Part shown: one piece after another, positions 1-37,392 of the stretch
How the letters are laid out: every line of letters starts with the position of its first letter
How positions within the stretch are numbered: position 1 is the first letter of the stretch
Virus record (IMG/VR): IMGVR_UViG_3300021579_000020
Location: 1-37,392 of that record
Strand: one strand, 5' to 3'
DNA: 37,392 nucleotides
Source: a virus
Taxonomy: Duplodnaviria; Caudoviricetes
Position numbers and translations under genes: made by a program
Notes under the pieces: model-generated
What the model was told of the DNA's origin: nothing
The model's input: the letters and a program-made list of their open reading frames with translations, nothing else
Databases searched by the model: none

Positions 1-531
1 TTATTTGTACAAGTTTTGATTTGTTGTAGATTTCAACAACAGATGTTTCCCCATATTCCACTATTGTTTCACTCATTTTATTTCCCCTTCCATTTCTTAG
101 TAAGTTCCTCCGTTTCCGTTTTTACATTGTAAAAATTTAATAGCTTCCGGAACATTCCCCATGCTTGTTTATCTTCGGCGTTGGTTAGTGTAGTTTTGCC
201 ATCTTGGTCAATTTCTAATACGTATAATTTCTTTGGCGGAAAATCAGGATACAATTTTGCGTATGCTGCTAGTTGTATAGGGTCGAGTATCTTGTTGTAA
301 GGTCTTGATTTGATATCGATAATCGCCTCTTCGAACACTAAATCCGGCGTTCCACCGTAAAAAAGTTTAGGGTGATACGTTGGTTTTTCAACAATTAGTT
401 TTTGATTCCCAAAATCAAGCGCAGACTCAAACCACTTTATAAACCCTTCCAGAGGCTTAACCAAAGCCTCGTCCAGCAATTGGTTATAGTTTAACCATGA
501 CTCAATAGTGCTATGTAAGGCCGTGCCGAAT
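1..531. repeat. Terminal redundancy, copy 1 (circularisation overlap containing allele 1 of the exonuclease 3' half)
   Basis: 1-99 is identical to 36856-36954 and 431-531 is identical to 37292-37392; the sequence between them is homologous but diverged. Confidence 0.95.
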
Positions 532-677
532 GCCTGCGCTCGTTGCAATGCATCGGCAGGCACATTACGATAACAATCAAGTGGCTCAATGATTTCCGAT
601 ACACTTGGCAAGCGCCTTTCTCCTAGCCAGTACGTATGGCTTTCCGGCTCGAATAGGAAATAATCTTTAGTTTCCAA
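78..677 (-). CDS. PD-(D/E)XK (Cas4/YqaJ-like) phage exonuclease
   Basis: Motifs H-x-Y...LPSVSEI, GTALH, VEKP, YGGTPD, IIDIKS, QLAAY; lies next to a Bet recombinase. Confidence 0.85.
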   Translation of the reverse strand: METKDYFLFEPESHTYWLGERRLPSVSEIIEPLDCYRNVPADALQRAQAFGTALHSTIESWLNYNQLLDEALVKPLEGFIKWFESALDFGNQKLIVEKPTYHPKLFYGGTPDLVFEEAIIDIKSRPYNKILDPIQLAAYAKLYPDFPPKKLYVLEIDQDGKTTLTNAEDKQAWGMFRKLLNFYNVKTETEELTKKWKGK

Positions 678-1686
678 GTTCGCCGTCCTCGCTGGTGTCT
701 ACAGCATCTGCCAGCATGTTTTCCTTTAATTCGTCCTTCGGTTCATCGCCTTCAATCAGGTCGATTCCTGCAATTTTATTGCCATATTTATCTGTTTTGA
801 ATTGTAATTTCACTTTGATGCCGTTGTCTATTGATGTTTTTGCCAGCGTGGCAAATTTTTCATTAGTAGAGGTGTAAGTATTCTCTTTCGAGTCGTACAC
901 GGTAAAAATGGGAAATTTCTTCTTTGTTTCAGAATTTTCTACCTCTTTTTTAGTTACTTTCAACAGCCCGGTAATTATTTGGTGTATATCGCCATCGTTT
1001 TTGGCTTCCGGCTGCCTAACTTCCGGCTTACCGCTCGGAACTGGAACTGGTATAACAGGATCCTGACCCATTTCGTATTGTGGTAATTCTTGGATTGTAT
1101 TTATTTCTTCTGGTGAATATAACCCTCCAAACGCGTCTGGGAATGCCTCTCTCAGGCTTTGTGTGAGTGATACCTTCCTTATCATTGTGGCTGATTTCTC
1201 TTGCCACATTTTTGATATTCCCCCGTCTTTCTTTCTCCCTATATATTCGTCTAATTTAACTTCATTCCTGAATGGGATTTTCCTATCTTTACGATAAACT
1301 TCCGCCCAGCCTCCTAATAATATTTCGCTCGACGTATGGAAGCTCCCCTCTCGATATATCACAACCCCACTACTAATAACTATTATGCCCGCCCGAAACC
1401 CATCATACTGTGGCTGCTTGTCCGCCCTTTTGGTAAATGTTTCCTTGCCTACAACCACAAATGCAGGGGTATCGCTTCCGTATTTGATAAGATATGCCTC
1501 TCGCAAAAAGGGATTAAGGTTCTGTGCTTTGCAAAGCTGCAAAAACATGTATGTTTCTTGCTCCGTAGCTGTGGGGCAGATATATTTCTTGATAATATTA
1601 ATGTCCAAAGCCACAGGCTTTTCTTCCTGTTTTATCGCGATATTTTTTCCCGCTCCATCTTGATTCATCAAATCGTAATTTGTCAT
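667..1686 (-). CDS. bet: Phage single-strand annealing recombinase (RecT/Bet family)
   Basis: FLQLCKAQNLNPFLREAYLIKYG, VGKETFTKRA, GGWAEVYRKDR, W...ATMIRKVSLTQSLREAFP..FGGLYSPEE. Confidence 0.9.
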   Translation of the reverse strand: MTNYDLMNQDGAGKNIAIKQEEKPVALDINIIKKYICPTATEQETYMFLQLCKAQNLNPFLREAYLIKYGSDTPAFVVVGKETFTKRADKQPQYDGFRAGIIVISSGVVIYREGSFHTSSEILLGGWAEVYRKDRKIPFRNEVKLDEYIGRKKDGGISKMWQEKSATMIRKVSLTQSLREAFPDAFGGLYSPEEINTIQELPQYEMGQDPVIPVPVPSGKPEVRQPEAKNDGDIHQIITGLLKVTKKEVENSETKKKFPIFTVYDSKENTYTSTNEKFATLAKTSIDNGIKVKLQFKTDKYGNKIAGIDLIEGDEPKDELKENMLADAVDTSEDGELGN

Positions 1687-1721
1687 TTTTCAACCCCTTC
1701 TTTCTTGCTAATTTTTGGCAT
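1683..1721 (-). CDS. Putative 12-aa leader ORF (MPKISKKEGVEK), translationally coupled to bet
   Basis: Strong SD AAGGAG 5 nt before the ATG; its stop overlaps the bet start (ATGA). Confidence 0.4.
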   Translation of the reverse strand: MPKISKKEGVEK

Positions 1722-1722
1722 G

Positions 1723-1872
1723 CTATCTCCTTTCCAAAATTTCCCCTAAGTCAGTAATTATTTCAGCAGAATCTAAAATTTCTCCCGCTTGAGTTACATA
1801 TCTATCGTACAAAGCAAGTACATCGTTGTACAATGCCTCATATTCTTTCTTCCAGTTTTTTTCTTCTTTCAC
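1723..1872 (-). CDS. Small 49-aa hypothetical protein (MKEEKNWKKEYEALYNDVLALYDRY...)
   Basis: GTG start after a purine-rich SD; fills the gap between the RNA element and bet; absent from the supplied ORF track. Confidence 0.6.
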   Translation of the reverse strand: MKEEKNWKKEYEALYNDVLALYDRYVTQAGEILDSAEIITDLGEILERR

Positions 1873-1894: not shown

Positions 1895-1986
1895 AAAAAA
1901 ACCTTGACCCCCGCAGGAGATAGCTGCGAAAGTCAAGGTCTCGGTTTTGCGTTTAAAAAAAATAATCAAGCCTATCTCTCTTGATT
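1895..1986 (-). ncRNA. Kissing-loop leader/attenuator element C
   Basis: Hairpin AAUCAAG-AGAGAUAGG-CUUGAUU, then a 16-bp stem (three U.G pairs, possible only on the minus strand) with loop CUAUCUC and a U-tract. Confidence 0.7.
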
Positions 1987-1994
1987 GTTTCAGT

Positions 1995-2023
1995 AATTTA
2001 CCAAAATGTTTTTGGTAAGTCAA
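1995..2023 (-). promoter_or_regulatory. Sigma70-type promoter with an overlapping palindromic operator
   Basis: TTGACT-17 nt-TAAATT with extended -10 TG; perfect inverted repeat TTACCAAAA-N3-TTTTGGTAA at 1998-2018. Confidence 0.7.
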
Positions 2024-2068
2024 AGAAATTCTAAAATAAATTTCACATCTCCTTGTAAGTCTTTAAAA

Positions 2069-2266
2069 TCAAGGCTTCTCGGCCTTCTCTACGAACGATT
2101 CTATGATGCTAATTTCCCTATTCAGCGATTCAATCTTACCCATGATTTTCCCACGAATACAATCATGGGCAATATCTAATGTGCCTCGCCAGGCGGCCAC
2201 CTCGTTACGGAGTTTGGCAATCTCATCTTGCCGGGCTTGATGGATGCCCATGTCAAATATATTCAT
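2069..2266 (-). CDS. Hypothetical protein, 65 aa
   Basis: SD AGGAG; ATGA overlap with the upstream gene; a partial copy exists at 3195-3265. Confidence 0.7.
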   Translation of the reverse strand: MNIFDMGIHQARQDEIAKLRNEVAAWRGTLDIAHDCIRGKIMGKIESLNREISIIESFVEKAEKP

Positions 2267-2631
2267 AAATTTGTCTCCTTTTCCTCAATTATCGCCCAGC
2301 ACTTATCATTACAATAGTTTTTAAGAAGCAAAGTAAATCGCTCAAACGCAACAGGTTCATGCGTAAATAATTCTATCACATTACCTCCGCCAACGCCTTC
2401 GGTGATTATCGCCATATGCCTGTCATCTACCTTGCAAAATTTAATCCACCTGAAAAATTTATCGTAATATCCTGATGGACAAAATACCTTACTGCCTACT
2501 TCTTTTAATATAGGCACATTTACATCAGGTATCCATTTTGGTTTACCATCTTCCAAGATGCATATTGCGCATCCTGTTGCGCTTGCTTTCTTTGCGTTCC
2601 TGTAATATCTGTACGTTTTCACTTTCCCCAT
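2263..2631 (-). CDS. Hypothetical protein (start may be the GTG at 2622)
   Basis: ORF after SD AAGGAG; its 5' end is duplicated at 3266-3310. Confidence 0.7.
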   Translation of the reverse strand: MGKVKTYRYYRNAKKASATGCAICILEDGKPKWIPDVNVPILKEVGSKVFCPSGYYDKFFRWIKFCKVDDRHMAIITEGVGGGNVIELFTHEPVAFERFTLLLKNYCNDKCWAIIEEKETNL

Positions 2632-2641
2632 CTCCTTAAAA

Positions 2642-2687
2642 TTCCGGTTTTACGGGCTGACCGGAAACCCAAGGCCGTGAAACTTAA
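2642..2687 (-). promoter_or_regulatory. Intergenic RNA element, copy 1 (TAA-GTTTCACGGCCTTGGG plus alternative hairpins)
   Basis: 20-mer at 2668-2687 is identical to 3663-3682; stems GUUUCACGG/CCGUAAAAC and UUCCGGU/ACCGGAA. Confidence 0.6.
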
Positions 2688-3022
2688 ACATTAATATTAA
2701 CCTCCGTCGTAATAGTATACGATAGAGTATTGCGCCAGGCTTTTATGTCATCTACGCGTCGTTGCAGCTCGGCTTGCAGATCTGCCGCAGAGCAACCAGG
2801 CGTAATTACCTGCCACTTGAAAATTTTACAATCCATCCCGATTGTCGTGCATATATTTATTACTTTCCCTTCCGTTATCACGCCTTTTCCTGCCTCCCGA
2901 GTGATGCCGTACAGTTTTCGGAATATGTTATAATCAACATATTCCTCGCCATTAATAGTCGCCGTATACCTCACGTGCTCTTTGCATCCAACATCTTTCT
3001 TCGCAGTTCTAGTGATCTTCAT
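2684..3022 (-). CDS. Hypothetical protein, 112 aa (first gene of cassette 2)
   Basis: ATG at 3022 after a GGAG/GGGG SD; the longer start in the track runs through the 5' hairpin. Confidence 0.7.
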   Translation of the reverse strand: MKITRTAKKDVGCKEHVRYTATINGEEYVDYNIFRKLYGITREAGKGVITEGKVINICTTIGMDCKIFKWQVITPGCSAADLQAELQRRVDDIKAWRNTLSYTITTEVNINV

Positions 3023-3049
3023 TTTCCCCGCTCCTCTCTTAATCCCCTT

Positions 3050-3188
3050 GGTGCAAGGCTTAATCGCCTTTTGCATCTAACTAATAGGCATTTCGTGTGC
3101 CATTCCCCTAAAATTACTTTTGCAATCGCCAGCAAAGCCTTACAAAATAAGGCGTTAGAGGTTTTTTAAAAATAATCTTAAAAAAATT
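3050..3188 (-). repeat. ~140-bp cassette head (sigma54 promoter plus 5' hairpin), copy 2
   Basis: Clearly alignable to 4409-4547. Confidence 0.9.
3088..3102 (-). promoter_or_regulatory. Sigma54 (-24/-12) promoter
   Basis: TGGCAC-ACGAA-ATGC, exact GG-N10-GC spacing. Confidence 0.75.
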
Positions 3189-3194
3189 AACCCC

Positions 3195-3310
3195 GTGCCT
3201 CGCCAGGCGGCTACCTCGTTACGTAATCTGGCAATCTCATCTTGCCTAGCTTGTTGGATCCCCATTGCGCTTGCTTTCTTTGCGTTCCTGTAATATTTGT
3301 ACGTTTTCAT
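3195..3310 (-). pseudogene. Deletion remnant fusing the start of the 2263-2631 gene to part of the 2069-2266 gene
   Basis: 3266-3309 matches 2577-2621 (KTY.YYRNAKKASA) and 3195-3264 matches 2181-2250 (QARQDEIA.LRNEVAAWRGT); the junction is out of frame. Confidence 0.8.
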
Positions 3311-3344
3311 TTTATTTCTCCCTTCCAAATTTGCAAGGCATGGG

Positions 3345-3623
3345 CTACATCGTATCCCTCCACTTTAAATCTTTCCCTCTCTCTTCATATTTAACGATGT
3401 CAATAAGACTGTTACCATACAACCACATTATTGTATGTGATTTATTGTCCCTGTCCACTACCTCGATTGTCCGAGGATTTGACGTTCCTGGAACAGGCCA
3501 AGAATGTATTGTGCCTACCATATTGCAATATTCCCTTCTATTGCAATATCCTTTCACTTTTACCATATCTCCATCGTAATACACAACCCCTTTTGCATCT
3601 GTGTATATGTATATTTTTCCCAT
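3345..3623 (-). CDS. Hypothetical protein, 92 aa
   Basis: ATG at 3623 after SD GGGAG. Confidence 0.65.
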   Translation of the reverse strand: MGKIYIYTDAKGVVYYDGDMVKVKGYCNRREYCNMVGTIHSWPVPGTSNPRTIEVVDRDNKSHTIMWLYGNSLIDIVKYEERGKDLKWRDTM

Positions 3624-3630
3624 TTTACTC

Positions 3631-3682
3631 ACTCCCTCCCACGGGGAGTTTCTCGGCACTCCCCCAAGGCCGTGAAACTTAA
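3631..3682 (-). promoter_or_regulatory. Intergenic RNA element, copy 2
   Basis: Same 20-mer; stems GUUUCACGGC/GCCGAGAAAC and GGGGAGU/ACUCCCC. Confidence 0.6.
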
Positions 3683-4380
3683 TCTTCTATTCCGTAGTTT
3701 TCTTCTGCATTCGCTTGTGCAAGTTTTCGGCGATATTTAATCTCTGGATTTCCTGAGTAATTGCCACAATCGCCATCGCAATAAGATTCACAATTGAAGC
3801 AATATCCTGTTGATATTTTATTTTCGATATCTTCTTTTATTGCTGCCTTACGGGCCGGAGCTCCTTCCCACTTTGTACGGGCTGCATTGATTTTGCCCAG
3901 TATTTCCGCATCCGTTTGGCTTGCACTATCTACATCATGCCCCATAATTAGGGCACTTTTGCATTCCGATAGGATTTCTTTATCTGATTTTGTGATATCT
4001 CCAATCCACTCTACGGGGCTATAATCGCCCCAACCGCAAGAAGATAACCAGATTCTTACTTGCTTCCTTTTTTCTGTTTTTTCTTCCTCGGCTTTTTTAT
4101 CTTGTTGCATTTTTACAGGGTGAGTTGCCCACATATCATCATCTCCAGCCCATATCCCATTATCGTTGTAGCCAAGCCTTACCCATGCATAGGCAGGGAT
4201 GCTATCGTATTTCCCAGCCTTAATGTCAGAAATAACTCTCCGCTTAGTGTTATCATCTGTGATTCCTAAAATAGGTATACCCTGATACCATAGTGTGCCA
4301 TCTGCCTTAATAATTACTTTTGCTGCAGGTAGATTGATTTTTACTTCTTCTCCTCTCACAATTCTAAGTATCCCCTTCAT
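3679..4380 (-). CDS. Hypothetical protein with C-terminal Cys cluster (CFNCESYCDGDC; probable metal binding)
   Basis: ATG at 4380 after AAGGAG; first gene of cassette 1. Confidence 0.75.
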   Translation of the reverse strand: MKGILRIVRGEEVKINLPAAKVIIKADGTLWYQGIPILGITDDNTKRRVISDIKAGKYDSIPAYAWVRLGYNDNGIWAGDDDMWATHPVKMQQDKKAEEEKTEKRKQVRIWLSSCGWGDYSPVEWIGDITKSDKEILSECKSALIMGHDVDSASQTDAEILGKINAARTKWEGAPARKAAIKEDIENKISTGYCFNCESYCDGDCGNYSGNPEIKYRRKLAQANAEENYGIED

Positions 4381-4408
4381 TTTATCTCCTTCTTCTTTTA
4401 TTCCCATC

Positions 4409-4547
4409 GGTGCAAGGCTTAATCGCCTTTTGCACTTAACTAATAAGCATTCGGCGTGCCATTTCCTGTAAAATTATTTTTTAAATCGCCCGCAAAGCCA
4501 ATAAAATCAAGGCGTTTAAGGTTTTTTAAAAATAATTTAAAAAAATC
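4409..4547 (-). repeat. ~140-bp cassette head, copy 1
   Basis: Alignable to 3050-3188; identical hairpin TGCAAAAGGC-GATTAA-GCCTTGCA. Confidence 0.9.
4447..4461 (-). promoter_or_regulatory. Sigma54 (-24/-12) promoter
   Basis: TGGCAC-GCCGA-ATGC; relative to the other copy the spacer varies and the boxes are conserved. Confidence 0.75.
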
Positions 4548-4589
4548 TAAAAGGCAAAATAACCGTGCCAAAGCCCTTAAAATCCCCAA

Positions 4590-4700
4590 AACCATTTCAA
4601 ACTTGCAATGCCTTAAGTTCCGGTGGGGAATGCAAATGCTTGCAAATTAAGGCTTTGCGCCAATTCATTGCATTTTGCAATACTTATTTCACCACTGCAA
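4590..4700. promoter_or_regulatory. Candidate enhancer (UAS) region with TGCA palindromes
   Basis: TGCAA-ATGC-TTGCA (4631-4644) and ATTGCA-TTT-TGCAAT (4667-4681), 170-220 bp upstream of the sigma54 site. Confidence 0.45.
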
Positions 4701-4805
4701 GGCGTGATTTTGAAATCTTTCCCCACCTATCAAGGGAGTAAAAATTAATCAAAATAATTTCCTCGCATTATTAAAAGATTAATGGTACAAAATAGCATAA
4801 ATAAG

Positions 4806-4912
4806 ATTACGGATTCGAGACGTAATTGAAATAAATATAACAGGCCGGGAATGGCCAAAACTGAACCCCAGTAAAGTTTGCTCGAATCATTCTTTACTGG
4901 GGTTTTTGTTTT
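4806..4912 (+). ncRNA. Kissing-loop leader/attenuator element A
   Basis: AUUACG-GAUUCGAGA-CGUAAU hairpin; GGCC-GGGAAU-GGCC hairpin; 13-bp terminator stem whose loop contains CUCGAAUC; U-tract. Confidence 0.7.
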
Positions 4913-4922
4913 GAGGGAAAAT

Positions 4923-5297
4923 ATGAAATTAACAACAAAAGAAAGAGAATTACTAGAAGAATCAATAGAGCATTGGAATAAAGATATTATTGATAATTTT
5001 ACAATTCATAACAAAACAATTTGTGAATTTGCCAGCACACTGTGGAATGATGGAAGCCTGATATGTGATTTTGAATTATATTGTCCTCTTTGCATAAAAT
5101 ATATGCGCCATAATATTAGAGGAGTATGTACAAGGTGTCCGTATTTCAAGTTTTATAAAATTAATTGTGACTATCACAATAAGTTCGAACTGAATGGCAA
5201 AAAGGGGCATTGGTACGCCTGGAGAATGAATAAAACATTAGAATCGGCAATAGCCATGAGAAATGCGTTGCAAAGGATAGTGGATTCAAATAAGTAA
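4923..5297 (+). CDS. Hypothetical Cys-rich protein (CPLC...CTRCPY...C)
   Basis: ATG at 4923 after GAGGG; 124 aa. Confidence 0.75.
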   Translation: MKLTTKERELLEESIEHWNKDIIDNFTIHNKTICEFASTLWNDGSLICDFELYCPLCIKYMRHNIRGVCTRCPYFKFYKINCDYHNKFELNGKKGHWYAWRMNKTLESAIAMRNALQRIVDSNK

Positions 5298-5307
5298 TAA
5301 AATTTCC

Positions 5308-5335
5308 TTGTATTAGTTGTAAAAAATGATATAAA
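5308..5335 (+). promoter_or_regulatory. Probable sigma70-type promoter for the replication genes
   Basis: TTGTAT-16 nt-TATAAA with extended -10 TG, just upstream of element B. Confidence 0.5.
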
Positions 5336-5353
5336 TTGGCGGGTAAAGATAAG

Positions 5354-5451
5354 GCTTGTATGTATGAGATATAAGCATAGATTGTTTAGGCCGAAAGGCC
5401 GAATATAGGGTTGTGTTGGCTTGCTCATACCAAGTCACACAACCCTTTTTT
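5354..5451 (+). ncRNA. Kissing-loop leader/attenuator element B
   Basis: GCUUGUAU-GUAUGAG-AUAUAAGC hairpin; GGCC-GAAA-GGCC hairpin; 16-bp bulged terminator stem with loop CUCAUAC; U-tract. Confidence 0.75.
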
Positions 5452-5467
5452 ATTGGTTTAGAAACAA

Positions 5468-6303
5468 TGACTAAAAACAAAGGGTGGGTTAGATTATACC
5501 GGCAAATAGAGGATAATCCTCTTTGGTTTGCGGAACCATTTACAAGAGCGCAAGCATGGATAGATTTAATTTTATTGGCAAATCATACAGACGGAATCCT
5601 GGTAATCAGGGGTAATGTCGTAACAATAAAAAGAGGCCAAATAGGATGGTCTCAAGAAAAGTTGGCCGAGCGTTGGAGATGGTCAAGGGGAAAGCTAAAA
5701 AGATTTATAAAATACCTAGAAATGATACAGCAGATAGAACAACAGCAATGCCATGCAGTTACATTACTTACGATAAAAAACTATTGTAAATATCAATCAG
5801 ATGATACAACAGACAGTACGACAGACAGTACAACAGACGGACATCAGACAGTACAACAGACGGACACTAACAAGAATGTTAATAATGTTAATAATGTTAA
5901 TAATGTTAATAATGATAATAATAAATACTCTCTGGTGAATTTCGAAGAAAATGTTAACACCACACCTGATAACACAGATGTTAACGTTGTTAACGTGAGT
6001 GTTAAAAAGAAAAGATTTATCCCGCCCTCTCTCGAAGAAATCAAAAGCTACATACTCGAAAAACAATACACAGTCAATCCGGATACCTTCTTTAACTACT
6101 TCACCGAGGGTAATTGGATTGACTCTAAGGGAAACAAAGTTCGTAACTGGAAACAAAAACTTATAACTTGGGAAAGGAAAAACTATGGACAACCTGGAAG
6201 AAGCATTAGTAGAAGCAAACAACCGCTTGAATCTGAGGAAGGAAAAGAAGGAAAATATGCCAATTTGCCCTGTGAGGTCATCAACGTCGATTTTGTCAAT
6301 TAA
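5468..6303 (+). CDS. Phage replication initiator / replisome organiser (lambda O-like role)
   Basis: KGWVRLYRQI..NPLW...AWIDLILLANH...IKRGQ...LAERWRWS N-terminus; C-terminal FIPPSLEEIK..FFNYFTEGNW..KVRNWK domain; internal repeats. Confidence 0.85.
5809..5919 (+). repeat. Putative replication origin: five 11-12 bp iterons (ACAGACRGKACA-like) followed by (AATGTTAAT)4-AATGATAAT
   Basis: Repeats seen directly; iterons plus an AT-rich tract inside the initiator gene is the lambdoid ori layout. Confidence 0.7.
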
Positions 6304-6985
6304 GCAAATTCAAGACAAGATATTACTTATGCCAACTCTGTTGGCTAAAAGAGAAAGTTACGAAGAAAGACAGCAGAGGAGAAACGAAGAGATTGAACAT
6401 CAAGAGCGTGAATCCTGGAACCATCTAAGGCAAGACAAGAAGAATAACCTACAGGCATACATCAAGGCTTGTGGTATCCCTAAGATATTCCAAAACAAAG
6501 AGCATTCAGGATGCAATGAAACTCAAAGCCTATTCCTCACTGGTAGTCACGGCACAGGAAAGACATACAAAGCCGTTGGCATATTAGAGAACTTTGTTAA
6601 AAGTCTGCCTTGTCCTTGTTTTAAAGATTCTCAACCTGCCAACCACCCTATCTTTATCACAGTACCAGAGCTACTTCTTAAGATCCGGTCTTGTTTCAGC
6701 GACCCTACATCATCCGAAGAGTATATGCTTAAACCTTATATCCAAACTCCTTTACTTATTCTCGACGATATTGGAGTAGAGAAAACTACCGAATGGGCAC
6801 TTCAAAGCCTTTATATAATCATCAACAATCGTTACTCTGAAGAAAAGCAAACAATCATCACTTCCAACCTTACCCTTGATGAAGTACGTGAAAAGGTTGG
6901 CGATAGAATCGCTTCTCGTATCTCAGGTATGTGTAAAATTGTAAAATTTACAGGCAAAGACAAACGTCTTACCATTAAACCCTAA
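6185..6985 (+). CDS. DnaC/IstB-like AAA+ helicase loader
   Basis: Walker A GSHGTGKT, Walker B LLILDDIG, IINNRY, TIITSNL, DRIASRI; start uncertain (overlaps the initiator by 119 nt). Confidence 0.9.
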   Translation: MDNLEEALVEANNRLNLRKEKKENMPICPVRSSTSILSIKQIQDKILLMPTLLAKRESYEERQQRRNEEIEHQERESWNHLRQDKKNNLQAYIKACGIPKIFQNKEHSGCNETQSLFLTGSHGTGKTYKAVGILENFVKSLPCPCFKDSQPANHPIFITVPELLLKIRSCFSDPTSSEEYMLKPYIQTPLLILDDIGVEKTTEWALQSLYIIINNRYSEEKQTIITSNLTLDEVREKVGDRIASRISGMCKIVKFTGKDKRLTIKP

Positions 6986-8002: not shown

Positions 8003-8386
8003 ATGAAAATTTCTGTATATAACGATACGATTTTTGCTTTAAATCTGTTGGCGGAAAAAAATAAAGAGGTTATCGTTTTTTATTCCGGTGGTAAAGACAG
8101 CCTTTGTGTTTTAGATTTGTGCTCTAAAATATTCGAAAAGGTTGTCTGTGTTTTCATGTACTTTATCCCAGGCTTGGCATGTGCAGAAAAACAGTTACAA
8201 TATGCAAGAGATAAATATGGAGTAGAGATAAAACAATACCCACATTGGGTGTTTGTGCGGTCTTTAATCCACGTTTTTTGTGATAATTATTATTTTGATT
8301 TTCCGCTCAAAGAAATCAAGTTAAAAGATGTTTATCGAATGGCCAGAGAAGATACAGGAATAAAAATCATCACGCAGGTTCGATAA
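8003..8386 (+). pseudogene. PAPS-reductase-like (PP-loop) protein, apparently truncated
   Basis: VIVFYSGGKDSLCVLDL motif; only 127 aa, stopping at about the strand (IIT) where the family's G-x-R/K-x-x-D/E-S motif should follow. Confidence 0.6.
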
Positions 8387-8407
8387 TTCCTGCGAGGCGG
8401 GAGTTTT

Positions 8408-9088
8408 ATGGAGTTAACTAAATACGAAAAGTATGAGATTGTTGAAATCAATCGCAAGGAAATTAGGAACGCCCCGTACAATCCCCGCAAAATAAGTGAT
8501 AAGGTACGTAGTAAGCTTAAAAACAATATCAAGACTATTGGTCTTATGTCTCCAATTACTTTTAACGTCAGAACCGGCAATATAGTTTCTGGGCATAAAA
8601 GAATTGAAGTTCTTGATACTTTAGAAAAAAATCAAGATTACAAGCTGAAAGTGGCGAAAGTAGACCTCGACGAGAAGACCGAAAAGGAACAAAACATTTT
8701 CATGAATAATCCCGAAGCGCAAGGTGAATTTGATTTTCAAAAACTTGATGAAATGCTTCGAGAGGATAAAGTTGATTTCGGGAGTGCAGGTTTTGAACTT
8801 TCAACCATTTATGATATTTTTGGCACAGACCCATTGCTTCAGCAGCCAGAACAATTAGAAATATTGTCAGAGGATTTGCGAAAAACTCAAAATATTTATG
8901 AAGGCGCTAAGAAACAGCTCAACGAAAGGGATGACTGGCAGTTCTTTCTAGTTACGGTGTTTAAAAGTACAGAACAAAAACTTGCATTCATCGAAAATCT
9001 TAAACAAAAAGGAATTGCATCAACGCAAGATGGAAAATACATAAACGGGCAAGACCTATATAACTTTATAGGCGATAGTAAGTTATAA
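8408..9088 (+). CDS. ParB/Srx N-terminal-domain protein
   Basis: APYNPRKI...LKNNIKTIGL..PITFN.RTGNIVSGHKRI...EKEQNIFMNN...GEFD. Confidence 0.85.
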   Translation: MELTKYEKYEIVEINRKEIRNAPYNPRKISDKVRSKLKNNIKTIGLMSPITFNVRTGNIVSGHKRIEVLDTLEKNQDYKLKVAKVDLDEKTEKEQNIFMNNPEAQGEFDFQKLDEMLREDKVDFGSAGFELSTIYDIFGTDPLLQQPEQLEILSEDLRKTQNIYEGAKKQLNERDDWQFFLVTVFKSTEQKLAFIENLKQKGIASTQDGKYINGQDLYNFIGDSKL

Positions 9089-24217: not shown

Positions 24218-24625
24218 GTGCGAGAATTAAAACAGAGTGATAAAAATATTCTGAGAATCCAGGACGCCTTAAGCGGTTCTGACTTGGAATTATATTATCG
24301 GATGCCCACAACATCCGAGCTGGTTTCCTATCAATCAAAGCTGATGCAGCGCAAAGGTAAAAAGGTTATCATTCATGCCTTTGATACCCGTCTCGAATTC
24401 GGGTTGAAAATTTTAACCGGATTCCGTGACGGCGATTTTGGATTTGACGGAAAACCAATTTCATCGGAAAAGGAAAATGCAAACTATCGTGAAGATTGGA
24501 AAGAGCTAGTTAAACAATCAGCTCCAGGCATCATCAATGCATTTTCCATGACCGTATTCGAAGGCGCACGGGTGGAACAAAATATTGATATAGAATACGA
24601 GGACGAACAAAACCCAAACGGTTAG
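24218..24625 (+). CDS. Tail assembly chaperone (gpG-like)
   Basis: GTG start after GGGG; lies between tube and tape measure; ends at a slippery site. Confidence 0.8.
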   Translation: MRELKQSDKNILRIQDALSGSDLELYYRMPTTSELVSYQSKLMQRKGKKVIIHAFDTRLEFGLKILTGFRDGDFGFDGKPISSEKENANYREDWKELVKQSAPGIINAFSMTVFEGARVEQNIDIEYEDEQNPNG

Positions 24626-36253: not shown

Positions 36254-36931
36254 TCACCTAATCGAAACCGAATTAATTTGCTGAATATGGATGCCAGGCA
36301 CATGCCTGATACCGGATGATTTTATCCATGCCTTCAAAACTTGATCTTTAAAATCAATAACCGTTATGGGAATAGTTCCGGCAACAATGCCTTTGAGCAC
36401 AGTCATGGGGTCTTCGATTGTAATCTTGATATCACTTCTTCTGGTTGTACTTACATTTTCCGATTTTATAGTCTTGGGAATGTTATTTGGCACAATTACC
36501 GGGGCGTCGTAAATCATCTCTGCCTTTTCTATAAGCTCTTCAGCCTTTTCCACCTTCCCTTTTTCTTCAGCCTTTATGGCTTGTGCCAACAGCTTTTCAC
36601 GCTCTTTGTCGGCGATTGCCTTTGCTTCAGCTTCTGCTTTTGATTGTTCGAGTCGCCTCTTTATTTCTTGGTCATTAAGGTAGTTATTGATTTTCTCCCG
36701 GACAAAAGCTTCTGCACATTTTAACGGCTTGATTTCTTTTTCTTCTCGCTCTGCAACCGCATCTTTTGCAGGTTTTAGATTGGCAATATTTTTTGCTAAC
36801 ATGCCTTTGATTTTTTTAACAAATTCTGCTGCAAATAAATAATCGCTCTCGTTGTTTATTTGTACAAGTTTTGATTTGTTGTAGATTTCAACAACAGATG
36901 TTTCCCCATATTCCACTATTGTTTCACTCAT
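36254..36931 (-). CDS. Coiled-coil protein of the recombination module (Gam/gp157-like position)
   Basis: Long Glu/Lys/Ala helix plus C-terminal ..IPGI-type motif; directly follows the exonuclease. Confidence 0.65.
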   Translation of the reverse strand: MSETIVEYGETSVVEIYNKSKLVQINNESDYLFAAEFVKKIKGMLAKNIANLKPAKDAVAEREEKEIKPLKCAEAFVREKINNYLNDQEIKRRLEQSKAEAEAKAIADKEREKLLAQAIKAEEKGKVEKAEELIEKAEMIYDAPVIVPNNIPKTIKSENVSTTRRSDIKITIEDPMTVLKGIVAGTIPITVIDFKDQVLKAWIKSSGIRHVPGIHIQQINSVSIR

Positions 36932-37392
36932 TTTATTTCCCCTTCCATTTCTTAATAAGTTCCTCCGTTTCCGTTTTTACATTGTAAAAATTTAATAGCT
37001 TCCGGAACATTCCCCATGCTTGTTTATCTTCGGCGTTGGTTAGCGTAGTTTTGCCTTCTAAATCAATCTCCAGCACGTACAATTTCTTTGGTGGGAAATC
37101 AGGATACAACTTTGCATATGCCGCAAGCTGTATCGGGTCTAACACTTTATTATAAGGCCGTGATTTTATGTCGATAATGGCCTCCTCAAATACTAAATCT
37201 GGAGTTCCCCCGTAAAAAAGCTTTGGATGATACATTGGTTTTTCAACCACAGGTCTTTGTTTTTTTAAATCCAAAACAGTATAAGCTTCGTACCACTTTA
37301 TAAACCCTTCCAGAGGCTTAACCAAAGCCTCGTCCAGCAATTGGTTATAGTTTAACCATGACTCAATAGTGCTATGTAAGGCCGTGCCGAAT
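36856..37392. repeat. Terminal redundancy, copy 2 (allele 2; 6 bp longer)
   Basis: See 1-531. Confidence 0.95.
36933..37392 (-). CDS. Exonuclease allele 2, 5'-truncated by the window end
   Basis: Protein nearly identical to 78-677 except around WYEAYTVLDLKKQRPV. Confidence 0.85.
   Translation of the reverse strand, partial: FGTALHSTIESWLNYNQLLDEALVKPLEGFIKWYEAYTVLDLKKQRPVVEKPMYHPKLFYGGTPDLVFEEAIIDIKSRPYNKVLDPIQLAAYAKLYPDFPPKKLYVLEIDLEGKTTLTNAEDKQAWGMFRKLLNFYNVKTETEELIKKWKGK

What the first reader, a model, noticed from the sequence alone, without database searches (positions are those of the whole stretch)
1895..5451. Three orthogonal kissing-loop attenuator-like RNAs in front of the replication and recombination genes
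Seen: elements at 4806-4912 (+), 5354-5451 (+) and 1895-1986 (-) share almost no primary sequence but have the same layout: a 5' hairpin (6-8 bp), a linker (with a GGCC/GGCC hairpin in two of them), and a 13-16 bp terminator stem with U-tract. In each, the 5' loop is the exact complement of the terminator loop: GAUUCGAG/CUCGAAUC, GUAUGAG/CUCAUAC, GAGAUAG/CUAUCUC. The only invariant is AG pairing with (G)CU. Two follow recognisable sigma70 promoters. They precede the Cys-rich gene, the initiator/loader and the bet-exonuclease operon. Established: loop-loop pairing controls termination or translation in plasmid antisense systems and in phage P1 C4 and P4 CI RNAs. Inference: this is a structured cis-regulatory RNA family with loop 'barcodes' that could control early genes or immunity in a phage with no visible repressor. 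I cannot assign it to a known family.
Basis: partly seen in the sequence, partly recalled or inferred. Interest (0 to 1): 0.85.

Follow-up and report, generated by a model that had tools for sequence, protein, structure and literature searches.

The report
Kissing-loop terminator leaders in a phage
Three early operons of this uncultured freshwater phage each start with a ~100-base leader in which the tip of a first hairpin is the exact complement of the tip of a predicted transcription-stop hairpin; many other phages keep this match with different letters, and the pairing likely holds the stop signal partly open, which is untested.

Summary
Observation confirmed. The three leaders (4806-4912 +, 5354-5451 +, 1895-1986 -) fold well, and each has 7 perfect loop-loop pairs. 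A genome-wide scan finds only these three (shuffles 0.01-0.08 per genome). The design is widespread in phages. In a search that fixed no loop letters, 68 of 77 terminator-forming viral hits had a complementary word of 6 or more bases upstream (swap control 6%), with 42 different words. That set is a loop-E subtype; window-type copies occur in the same genomes. Five cultured Cellulophaga/Flavobacterium phages carry the design. It is rare in bacterial genomes, and no Rfam family reaches its cut-off. It works most likely like the guanidine-IV riboswitch (kiss on the terminator loop hinders terminator zipping) but lacks its conserved loop nucleotides and gene context, so it is not a member. Best model: a ligand-free cis valve in front of replication, recombination and nuclease genes (0.55). 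The 'barcode' or immunity idea is not shown: codes do not change faster than stems, and distinct codes within a genome (18 of 18 pairs) are expected by chance. No expression data. This scan noted the same design before on other DNA (83 findings, at least 81 genomes).

The parts
1995..2023 (-). Promoter-like site for leader C (TTGACT-17-TAAATT, TG before the -10)
1964..1986 (-). Leader C, hairpin P1; kissing word GAGAUAG at 1978-1972
   Evidence: free MFE gives an alternative P1 register
1895..1942 (-). Leader C, terminator-type hairpin (19 pairs, several G-U), loop CUAUCUC 1923-1917, U run
1719..1732 (-). Shine-Dalgarno-like site and start of a 12-codon ORF (1721-1683) overlapping the bet start; 10 bases are the perfect complement of leader C's terminator tip (possible second target, lead only)
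667..1686 (-). Bet/RecT-like single-strand annealing protein, downstream of leader C
   Evidence: PHROG 2760, 252
78..677 (-). Exonuclease, downstream of bet
   Evidence: PHROG 298
4763..4791 (+). Promoter-like site for leader A (weak -35 TCGCAT, TG-n-TACAAA), similar to B's
   Evidence: sequence read by eye; not listed
4806..4826 (+). Leader A, hairpin P1; kissing word (G)AUUCGAG 4812-4819
4843..4856 (+). Leader A, middle GGCC hairpin
4863..4912 (+). Leader A, terminator-type hairpin, loop CUCGAAU 4881-4887, U run
4923..5297 (+). 124-aa Cys-rich ORF of unknown family behind leader A
   Evidence: no PHROG or Pfam hit; only itself found
5308..5335 (+). Promoter-like site for leader B (TTGTAT-16-TATAAA, TG before the -10)
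   Evidence: sequence read by eye; not listed
5354..5376 (+). Leader B, hairpin P1; loop GUAUGAG 5362-5368
5389..5400 (+). Leader B, middle GGCC-GAAA-GGCC hairpin
5407..5451 (+). Leader B, terminator-type hairpin, loop CUCAUAC 5424-5430, U run
5467..6303 (+). DnaD-like replication initiator behind leader B
   Evidence: PHROG 2514, 186
6185..6985 (+). DnaC-like helicase loader
   Evidence: PHROG 50

Best explanation
Each element is a promoter-proximal leader with a short hairpin (P1) and a terminator-type hairpin whose loops are exact 7-base complements, and the loops likely pair during transcription so that the short linker would hinder full zipping of the terminator, letting part of the polymerases read on into the replication and recombination genes without a small-molecule ligand. 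Shown: the hairpin-forming sequences, the complementarity, its covariation across phages, the gene context, and the lack of conserved loop letters. Inferred: transcription from the promoter-like sites, formation of the kiss, and its sign (read-through), by analogy to the guanidine-IV riboswitch, where the P1-loop/terminator-loop kiss prevents assembly of a rigid terminator and P2 growth shortens the linker (PMC11611296). The likely result is a hard-wired or speed-sensitive valve that keeps initiator, recombinase and homing-nuclease output below the promoter's rate and releases ~90-100-nt terminated RNAs.
For: Layout far above chance. Complementarity kept with changing letters: 68 of 77 terminator-forming hits of a loop-blind pattern vs 6.4% in swaps and 3 of 32 non-terminator hits; 42 distinct words. 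Strict detector: 37 hits vs 2, 0 and 1 in three control modes over 26 carrier records plus the window; 10 convincing unseeded extra copies, several of window type. One of them (G006, GUACGAG/CUCGUAC) differs from leader B by one compensated pair. Leader B's code recurs with unrelated stems in L169 and L216, the latter before an HNH-initiator-DnaB operon. Cultured lillamy9-1 and morran9-1 differ by one compensated pair. Downstream genes are mostly initiators, primase/helicases and homing nucleases. Linkers are short and 85% A/U (median 12 nt vs a helical span of 39 bp; 6.2-8.4 A per nt needed with both helices full). Perfect 5-7-pair kisses generally form without cofactors (PMC10907184, passages). 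No protein is shared between the window and more than 1 of 27 carrier records.
Against: No expression or termination data. The sign comes only from analogy. The terminators are very stable (about -22 to -26 kcal/mol vs about -7 to -10 for the loop duplex), and nested folding gives the terminator once its 3' arm is out. The linker estimate is biased short because MFE folding over-extends P1 with weak A-U pairs, and window leaders A and B have 30-nt linkers whose tension depends on the middle hairpin. The loop-blind test is on a loop-E subtype that the window's three lack; the link rests on shared layout, shared loop grammar and co-occurrence. Hits are not phylogenetically independent. Only 4 of 115 loci of initiator relatives gave a strict hit (controls 2, 1, 1).
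Confidence: 0.55

Rival explanations
1. Code-specific feedback in trans. Terminated leader RNAs, whose zipped terminator keeps their own loops apart, accumulate with genome copy number and kiss nascent leaders of the same code. That would remove the cis tether and cause termination: an RNA copy counter or exclusion system like pIP501 RNAIII attenuation or P4 CI RNA. Leader C's tip may also block the ribosome site coupled to bet.
For: Three mutually non-pairing codes in the window (cognate -7.1 to -7.3, cross -0.5 to -3.2 kcal/mol); all 18 within-genome pairs differ. Initiator genes 96-97% identical carry three different codes. Leader C's tip pairs over 10 perfect bases (-21.6 kcal/mol) with a downstream Shine-Dalgarno site. 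Complete carriers seldom show an integrase (1 of 13) or HTH_3 protein (1 of 13), vs 4 of 17 and 6 of 17 in initiator relatives without a detected leader.
Against: Kiss pairs change no faster than P1 pairs (0.272 vs 0.266). About 0.5 collisions were expected among 18 pairs, so 0 is not significant. The differing codes go with unrelated upstream DNA (module shuffling). A downstream target of 10 or more bases is seen in 1 of 55 leaders, and C's site ranks only third in the genome by energy. The integrase and HTH differences are small samples of unrelated groups. Trans kissing must win within about 1-2 s of transcription (own estimate).
Confidence: 0.2
2. The kiss forms after or together with termination and reinforces it, or compacts and protects the released ~100-nt RNA, which acts as a small RNA or decoy; downstream genes get only basal read-through or use other promoters.
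For: Very stable terminators. 7/7 kissing loops are compatible with both stems in known complexes (own knowledge). Promoter-to-terminator units of about 100 nt look like small-RNA genes.
Against: The leaders sit a few bases before start codons of replication and nuclease genes in most loci. The linker looks too short for relaxed coexistence of kiss and full terminator. No conserved free sequence that could act on a target.
Confidence: 0.12
3. A true switch: a host or phage protein (Rop-like, reading the shape of the kiss) or an ion or metabolite stabilises or breaks the kiss, as guanidine does in guanidine-IV.
For: Same topology as guanidine-IV and Gd4v (PMC7736828, PMC9788692). The Bacteroidota subtype keeps an AGUA/GAA internal loop, and the guanidine-IV L. 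lactis terminator loop also reads AGUAG...GAGAA. L216 and Nekkels_1 have a branch hairpin in the terminator like Gd4v 'D2'.
Against: The window's three have no conserved loop letters or internal-loop motif. The AGUA/GAA motif was imposed by my search pattern. No shared phage protein was found (tblastn E<1e-4, which would miss small divergent proteins).
Confidence: 0.11
4. Ordinary terminators with chance upstream complements.
For: A loose detector gave no enrichment over controls (32 vs 23-37).
Confidence: 0.01

Closest known systems
Guanidine-IV riboswitch (GGAM-1) and Gd4v variant (PMC7736828, PMC11611296, PMC9788692)
   Same: Two hairpins joined by a loop-loop pseudoknot; the 3' hairpin is an intrinsic terminator; 5' leader position, about 90-100 nt.
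   Different: Guanidine-IV has highly conserved loop nucleotides needed for ligand binding, a large terminator loop (14 nt in the L. lactis construct) and sugE/GNAT/MATE genes. Here 7 perfect pairs with free letters, a 7-nt loop, and phage replication, recombination and nuclease genes.
Phage P4 CI RNA with seqA/seqC (PMC4825925, passages); P1 C4 RNA (recalled)
   Same: Leader RNA with internal complementary sequences; premature termination before replication genes; leader C also has a possible downstream target at a ribosome site.
   Different: CI is processed from the leader and acts as an antisense RNA on two targets. Here the antisense word is the terminator's own loop; a downstream target is seen in 1 of 55 leaders; carriers mostly lack an integrase.
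pIP501 RNAIII / repR attenuator (PMC4981023, passages)
   Same: Loop pairing controls termination in the leader of a replication initiator gene.
   Different: Uses a separate convergent antisense RNA. No consistent convergent promoter was seen here, and both loops lie in one transcript.
[quoted passage not shown]
   Same: Two hairpins, the second a terminator; weak match to leader C (21.7 bits, cut-off 50).
   Different: Its published alignment shows no complement between the two loops (read by eye); long P1; Lactobacillales rRNA methylase genes.

Membership tests
Guanidine-IV riboswitch / Gd4v | Two hairpins, the 3' one a Rho-independent terminator | tested here: met
   (predicted structure)
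Guanidine-IV riboswitch / Gd4v | Pseudoknot between P1 loop and terminator loop | tested here: met
   Sequence complementarity and covariation; formation not shown
Guanidine-IV riboswitch / Gd4v | [quoted passage not shown] | tested here: not met
   Three different loop words in the window; 42-45 words in relatives; L. lactis construct loops unlike these
Guanidine-IV riboswitch / Gd4v | Upstream of sugE, GNAT, MATE or transaminase genes | tested here: not met
   Downstream genes are initiator, Bet/exonuclease, unknown ORF; in relatives initiators, helicases, homing nucleases
Guanidine-IV riboswitch / Gd4v | Ligand-dependent read-through | not testable with these tools
   Needs in-line probing and termination assays
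Guanidine-IV riboswitch / Gd4v | Score against the family's covariance model | not tested
   No Rfam hit at these places, but I did not check that Rfam 15 holds a model of this family
23S-methyl motif (RF01065) | Covariance-model score at or above 50 bits | tested here: not met
   21.7 bits on leader C only
23S-methyl motif (RF01065) | Upstream of an rRNA methyltransferase gene | tested here: not met
P4 CI-type antisense immunity | Antisense element with an upstream and a downstream target | tested here: inconclusive
   Upstream complement in all; downstream 10-base target only for leader C, 1 of 55 leaders
P4 CI-type antisense immunity | Processed stable RNA acting in trans and giving immunity | not testable with these tools
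   Needs transcript mapping and superinfection tests
pIP501-type antisense attenuator | Separate convergent antisense promoter | tested here: inconclusive
   Consensus scan shows one weak minus-strand site near A (5014-4986) and none close to B or C; the scan is insensitive

The most novel reading that the evidence does not exclude
These leaders are a repressor-free, letter-coded RNA control layer of phages: the cis kiss opens the terminator, while released leader RNAs of the same code shut it in trans, so each operon counts its own copies (and excludes same-code rivals) with no protein, ligand or separate antisense gene; leader C also silences the ribosome site coupled to bet.
Probability: 0.2. 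Interest if true: 0.85.

Novelty: new variant of a known kind. Interest (0 to 1): 0.62.

Why it matters
A terminator controlled through its own loop has been described for the guanidine-IV riboswitch family. Finding the same topology, with free letters and no ligand pocket, in front of replication genes of many phages suggests a common, uncatalogued way for phages without a visible repressor to meter early genes. It also offers a natural set of orthogonal attenuator parts. This window adds a three-copy example from a phage with sigma70-type promoters and Shine-Dalgarno-led genes, outside the Bacteroidota-type group where most examples lie. Five cultured phages (Cellulophaga phi10:1, phi19:1, Nekkels_1; Flavobacterium morran9-1, lillamy9-1) make the mechanism directly testable.

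Tried and rejected
Close relatives of the window's phage: none found through Bet, the Cys-rich ORF or distant blastn against cultured phages. Exact-code scans: code B gave 2 unrelated look-alikes (L169 = L271, and L216) among 21 viral and 119 metagenome loci; codes C and A gave none among 5 and 12 viral loci. L255 is identical to the window and was left out. A GGCC-GAAA-GGCC pattern gave no convincing element in 37 loci. My first strict detector found no convincing hit in 152 loci, and a loose one was not above its controls; both were replaced. The final detector misses real cases (3 of 26 seeds, L216, all 5 cultured examples), so its counts are lower bounds. MAFFT could not align the elements, so no covariance model was built and R-scape was not run. 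Sequencing runs: no RNA holder listed; contigs of a second DNA run showed no differing letters. 23S-methyl rejected. Leader peptide rejected as a general rule: only B's loop holds an AUG. Strand-exchange antiterminator: possible for B (GGCUUG with CAAGUC), not evident for C or the loop-E subtype. Faster evolution of codes looked true when pairs were chosen by low stem divergence but vanished in the fairer test. The repeated 160-bp leftward modules do not fold better than shuffles. Literature searches showed no paper on this phage element. The supplement of PMC5737381 could not be read and three supplementary files of PMC10690425 were not searched; either may list it as an unnamed candidate.
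Full report
Setting. The window is a whole 37.4-kb phage record held by freshwater metagenome runs. Its ends overlap over 537 nt at 88% identity, so it probably spans most of a circularly permuted genome, although CheckV estimates 76%. PHROG hits give Bet/RecT (667-1686 -), exonuclease (78-677 -), a DnaD-like initiator (5467-6303 +), a DnaC-like loader and a head-tail block. No tyrosine integrase or HTH_3 protein was found. The host is unknown; the nearest named portals (60%) come from bins labelled Ca. Wunengus and Deltaproteobacteria.

Observation. All three elements are as described, with fold z-scores of -4.7 to -6.1. A scan for 'P1 loop complementary to terminator loop' finds exactly these 3 on both strands; 100 shuffles give 0.01-0.08 per genome. 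Starting from terminators instead, 3 of 10 strong terminator-like hairpins have a 7/7 complement upstream, against 0.15-0.65% per loop by chance. Each leader follows a similar promoter-like site (AATTTC then a -35, TG-n-TA.AA.); only C's is listed by the consensus scan. The three codes do not cross-pair.

Relatives. The phage itself has no close relative in reach. Among 115 loci of initiator relatives the final detector found 4 hits (controls 2, 1, 1), so most lack the leader or escape detection. Exact-code scans found B's code with unrelated stems in L169 (= L271) and L216; both have TTGACA promoter-like sites, and L216 precedes HNH, initiator and DnaB genes. Two look-alikes (L079, L088) had an AGUA/GAA internal loop under the terminator tip. 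I used that motif, with no loop letters, as a blind test in viral contigs (120 loci from 19 of 64 parts of the collection). Of 109 distinct hits with enough upstream DNA, 77 formed a terminator stem. Of these 68 had a Watson-Crick complement of 6 or more bases upstream (52 had 7 or more), mostly about 40 nt away in a hairpin loop, against 6.4% when loops and upstream regions were swapped and 3 of 32 non-terminator hits. The 68 use 42 words. They include records of the two seed phages and are not phylogenetically independent. The same pattern in GTDB genomes gave 115 hits, 21 terminator-forming, about 2 real by eye and 1 by the detector: the element is phage-enriched.

Are the window's three the same family as that subtype? 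They lack the internal loop. But their words fit its grammar (R..RG; 15 of 16 distinct words of one class). B differs from L412's word, and A from L381's, by one letter. Scanning 60 stretches of 26 carrier records plus the window gave 37 hits vs 2, 0 and 1 in control modes: 23 of 26 seeds, the 3 window elements, 10 convincing extra copies and 1 doubtful one. Several extras are of window type, and G006's GUACGAG/CUCGUAC is one compensated pair from B. I take them as one design with variable terminator interiors; common descent is not shown. Of 6 cultured-phage regions fetched, 5 carry it before the initiator region: phi10:1, phi19:1, Nekkels_1, morran9-1 and lillamy9-1, the last two differing by one compensated pair; none was seen in the Arctus_1 region (found by eye, missed by the detector). 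These and most subtype members follow TAnnTTTG, the Bacteroidota -7 box (label recalled). Downstream genes are mostly initiators, primase/helicases and HNH or GIY-YIG nucleases (28 and 42 selected proteins).

Mechanism. The guanidine-IV riboswitch has the same topology. There the kiss between P1 and the terminator loop prevents assembly of a rigid terminator, and growth of P2 shortens the linker and strains the kiss (PMC11611296, sections 5 and 11). It depends on conserved loop nucleotides (PMC7736828, sections 12-13), which are absent here. Perfect 5-7-pair kisses generally form without cofactors (PMC10907184, passages). Across 74 distinct leaders the linker is short and 85% A/U; with both helices full it would need 6.2-8.4 A per nucleotide at the median, near the limit for single-stranded RNA (recalled). 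This estimate is biased by over-extended P1 folds, and A and B have 30-nt linkers with a middle hairpin. Nested folding favours loop-loop pairing only until the 3' arm emerges, then the terminator. I therefore commit to a ligand-free cis valve that gives partial read-through (0.55). The kiss, its sign and expression are all inferred.

Barcodes and immunity. For: orthogonal codes; 18 of 18 within-genome pairs differ; 96-97% identical initiators carry three codes; few integrases or HTH_3 proteins in complete carriers (1 of 13 each, vs 4 and 6 of 17 in relatives without a detected leader). Leader C's tip also pairs over 10 perfect bases with the Shine-Dalgarno site of a 12-codon ORF overlapping the bet start. 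Against: kiss pairs change at 0.272 vs 0.266 for P1 pairs; only about 0.5 collisions were expected; the differing codes travel with unrelated upstream DNA; a downstream target appears in 1 of 55 leaders; C's site ranks third genome-wide. Trans feedback stays a rival at 0.2.

Known families. Rfam gave no hit at cut-off on the window's leaders or on relatives' leaders. The only on-target weak hit for the window with a similar layout, 23S-methyl on C, fails on score, gene context and loop complementarity. Not a member of guanidine-IV/Gd4v: conserved nucleotides and gene context are not met. It works like it.

What I read. PMC7736828: abstract, section 12 part 1, section 13, supplement part 1. PMC11611296: abstract, sections 5 and 11. 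PMC9788692: abstract, section 4 part 1. PMC1950547: passages, supplement file 1 part 24. PMC4825925, PMC10907184, PMC4981023, PMC7077304, PMC7724050: passages. PMC10690425: passages, partial supplement search. PMC5737381: listing only; supplement unreadable. P1 C4, Rop and ColE1 points are recalled. Searches showed no paper on this element; unread supplements may list it.

Earlier scan notes. 83 findings in at least 81 genomes match these words. They gave me the guanidine-IV lead, the pointer to cultured Bacteroidota phages and the 'valve' wording. I re-tested covariation and cultured carriers myself; their agreement is not independent support.

Verdict. A real, widespread phage RNA design not found in Rfam or in my searches; a new variant of a known kind; mechanism inferred. 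Interest 0.62.

Noticed in passing
window 3032-3190 and 4391-4550: A ~160-bp module repeated at 80% identity in front of two leftward ORFs, with TGCAAGGC at 3052, 3332, 4411 and 4696; does not fold better than shuffles, so possibly DNA sites of a leftward promoter or operator cassette.
   Followed up: partly
window 1-531 and 36855-37392: The contig ends overlap over 537 nt at only 88% identity (two versions of the exonuclease gene): circular permutation with strain mixture, or a diverged duplicate.
   Followed up: partly
window 2181-2251/3195-3265, 2577-2625/3265-3313, 2668-2687/3663-3682: Short repeats in the leftward early region; ORF 3155-3328 looks stitched from pieces of ORFs 2263-2631 and 2069-2266, a sign of recombination-driven mosaicism.
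   Followed up: no
window about 24390-24402 (+): 13-base near-perfect complement (one G-U, -21 kcal/mol, best in the genome) of leader A's P1 tip inside a tail-region ORF; probably chance.
   Followed up: partly
window 1721-1683 (-): 12-codon ORF with a strong Shine-Dalgarno site overlapping the bet start codon (ATGA), suggesting translational coupling.
   Followed up: partly
window 8003-9088 (+): PAPS-reductase-like and ParB-like genes just before the terminase genes.
   Followed up: no
L608 (G017) 41072 and 42625: Two recently duplicated leaders before homing nucleases differ by one compensated kissing pair (CUGGUCC vs CUCGUCC).
   Followed up: partly
L216:3647-3766(-) and L615 (Nekkels_1, record 48447-48544): Terminator hairpins with an extra branch hairpin, like the D2 feature of Gd4v RNAs.
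   Followed up: no
L310-L429 subtype: The AGUAG...GAAAG internal loop under the terminator tip resembles the AGUAG...GAGAA loop of the L. lactis guanidine-IV construct; a shared origin is possible.
   Followed up: no
L613:800-834: DUF805b RNA (RF02914, 52 bits, above cut-off) in Flavobacterium phage morran9-1.
   Followed up: no
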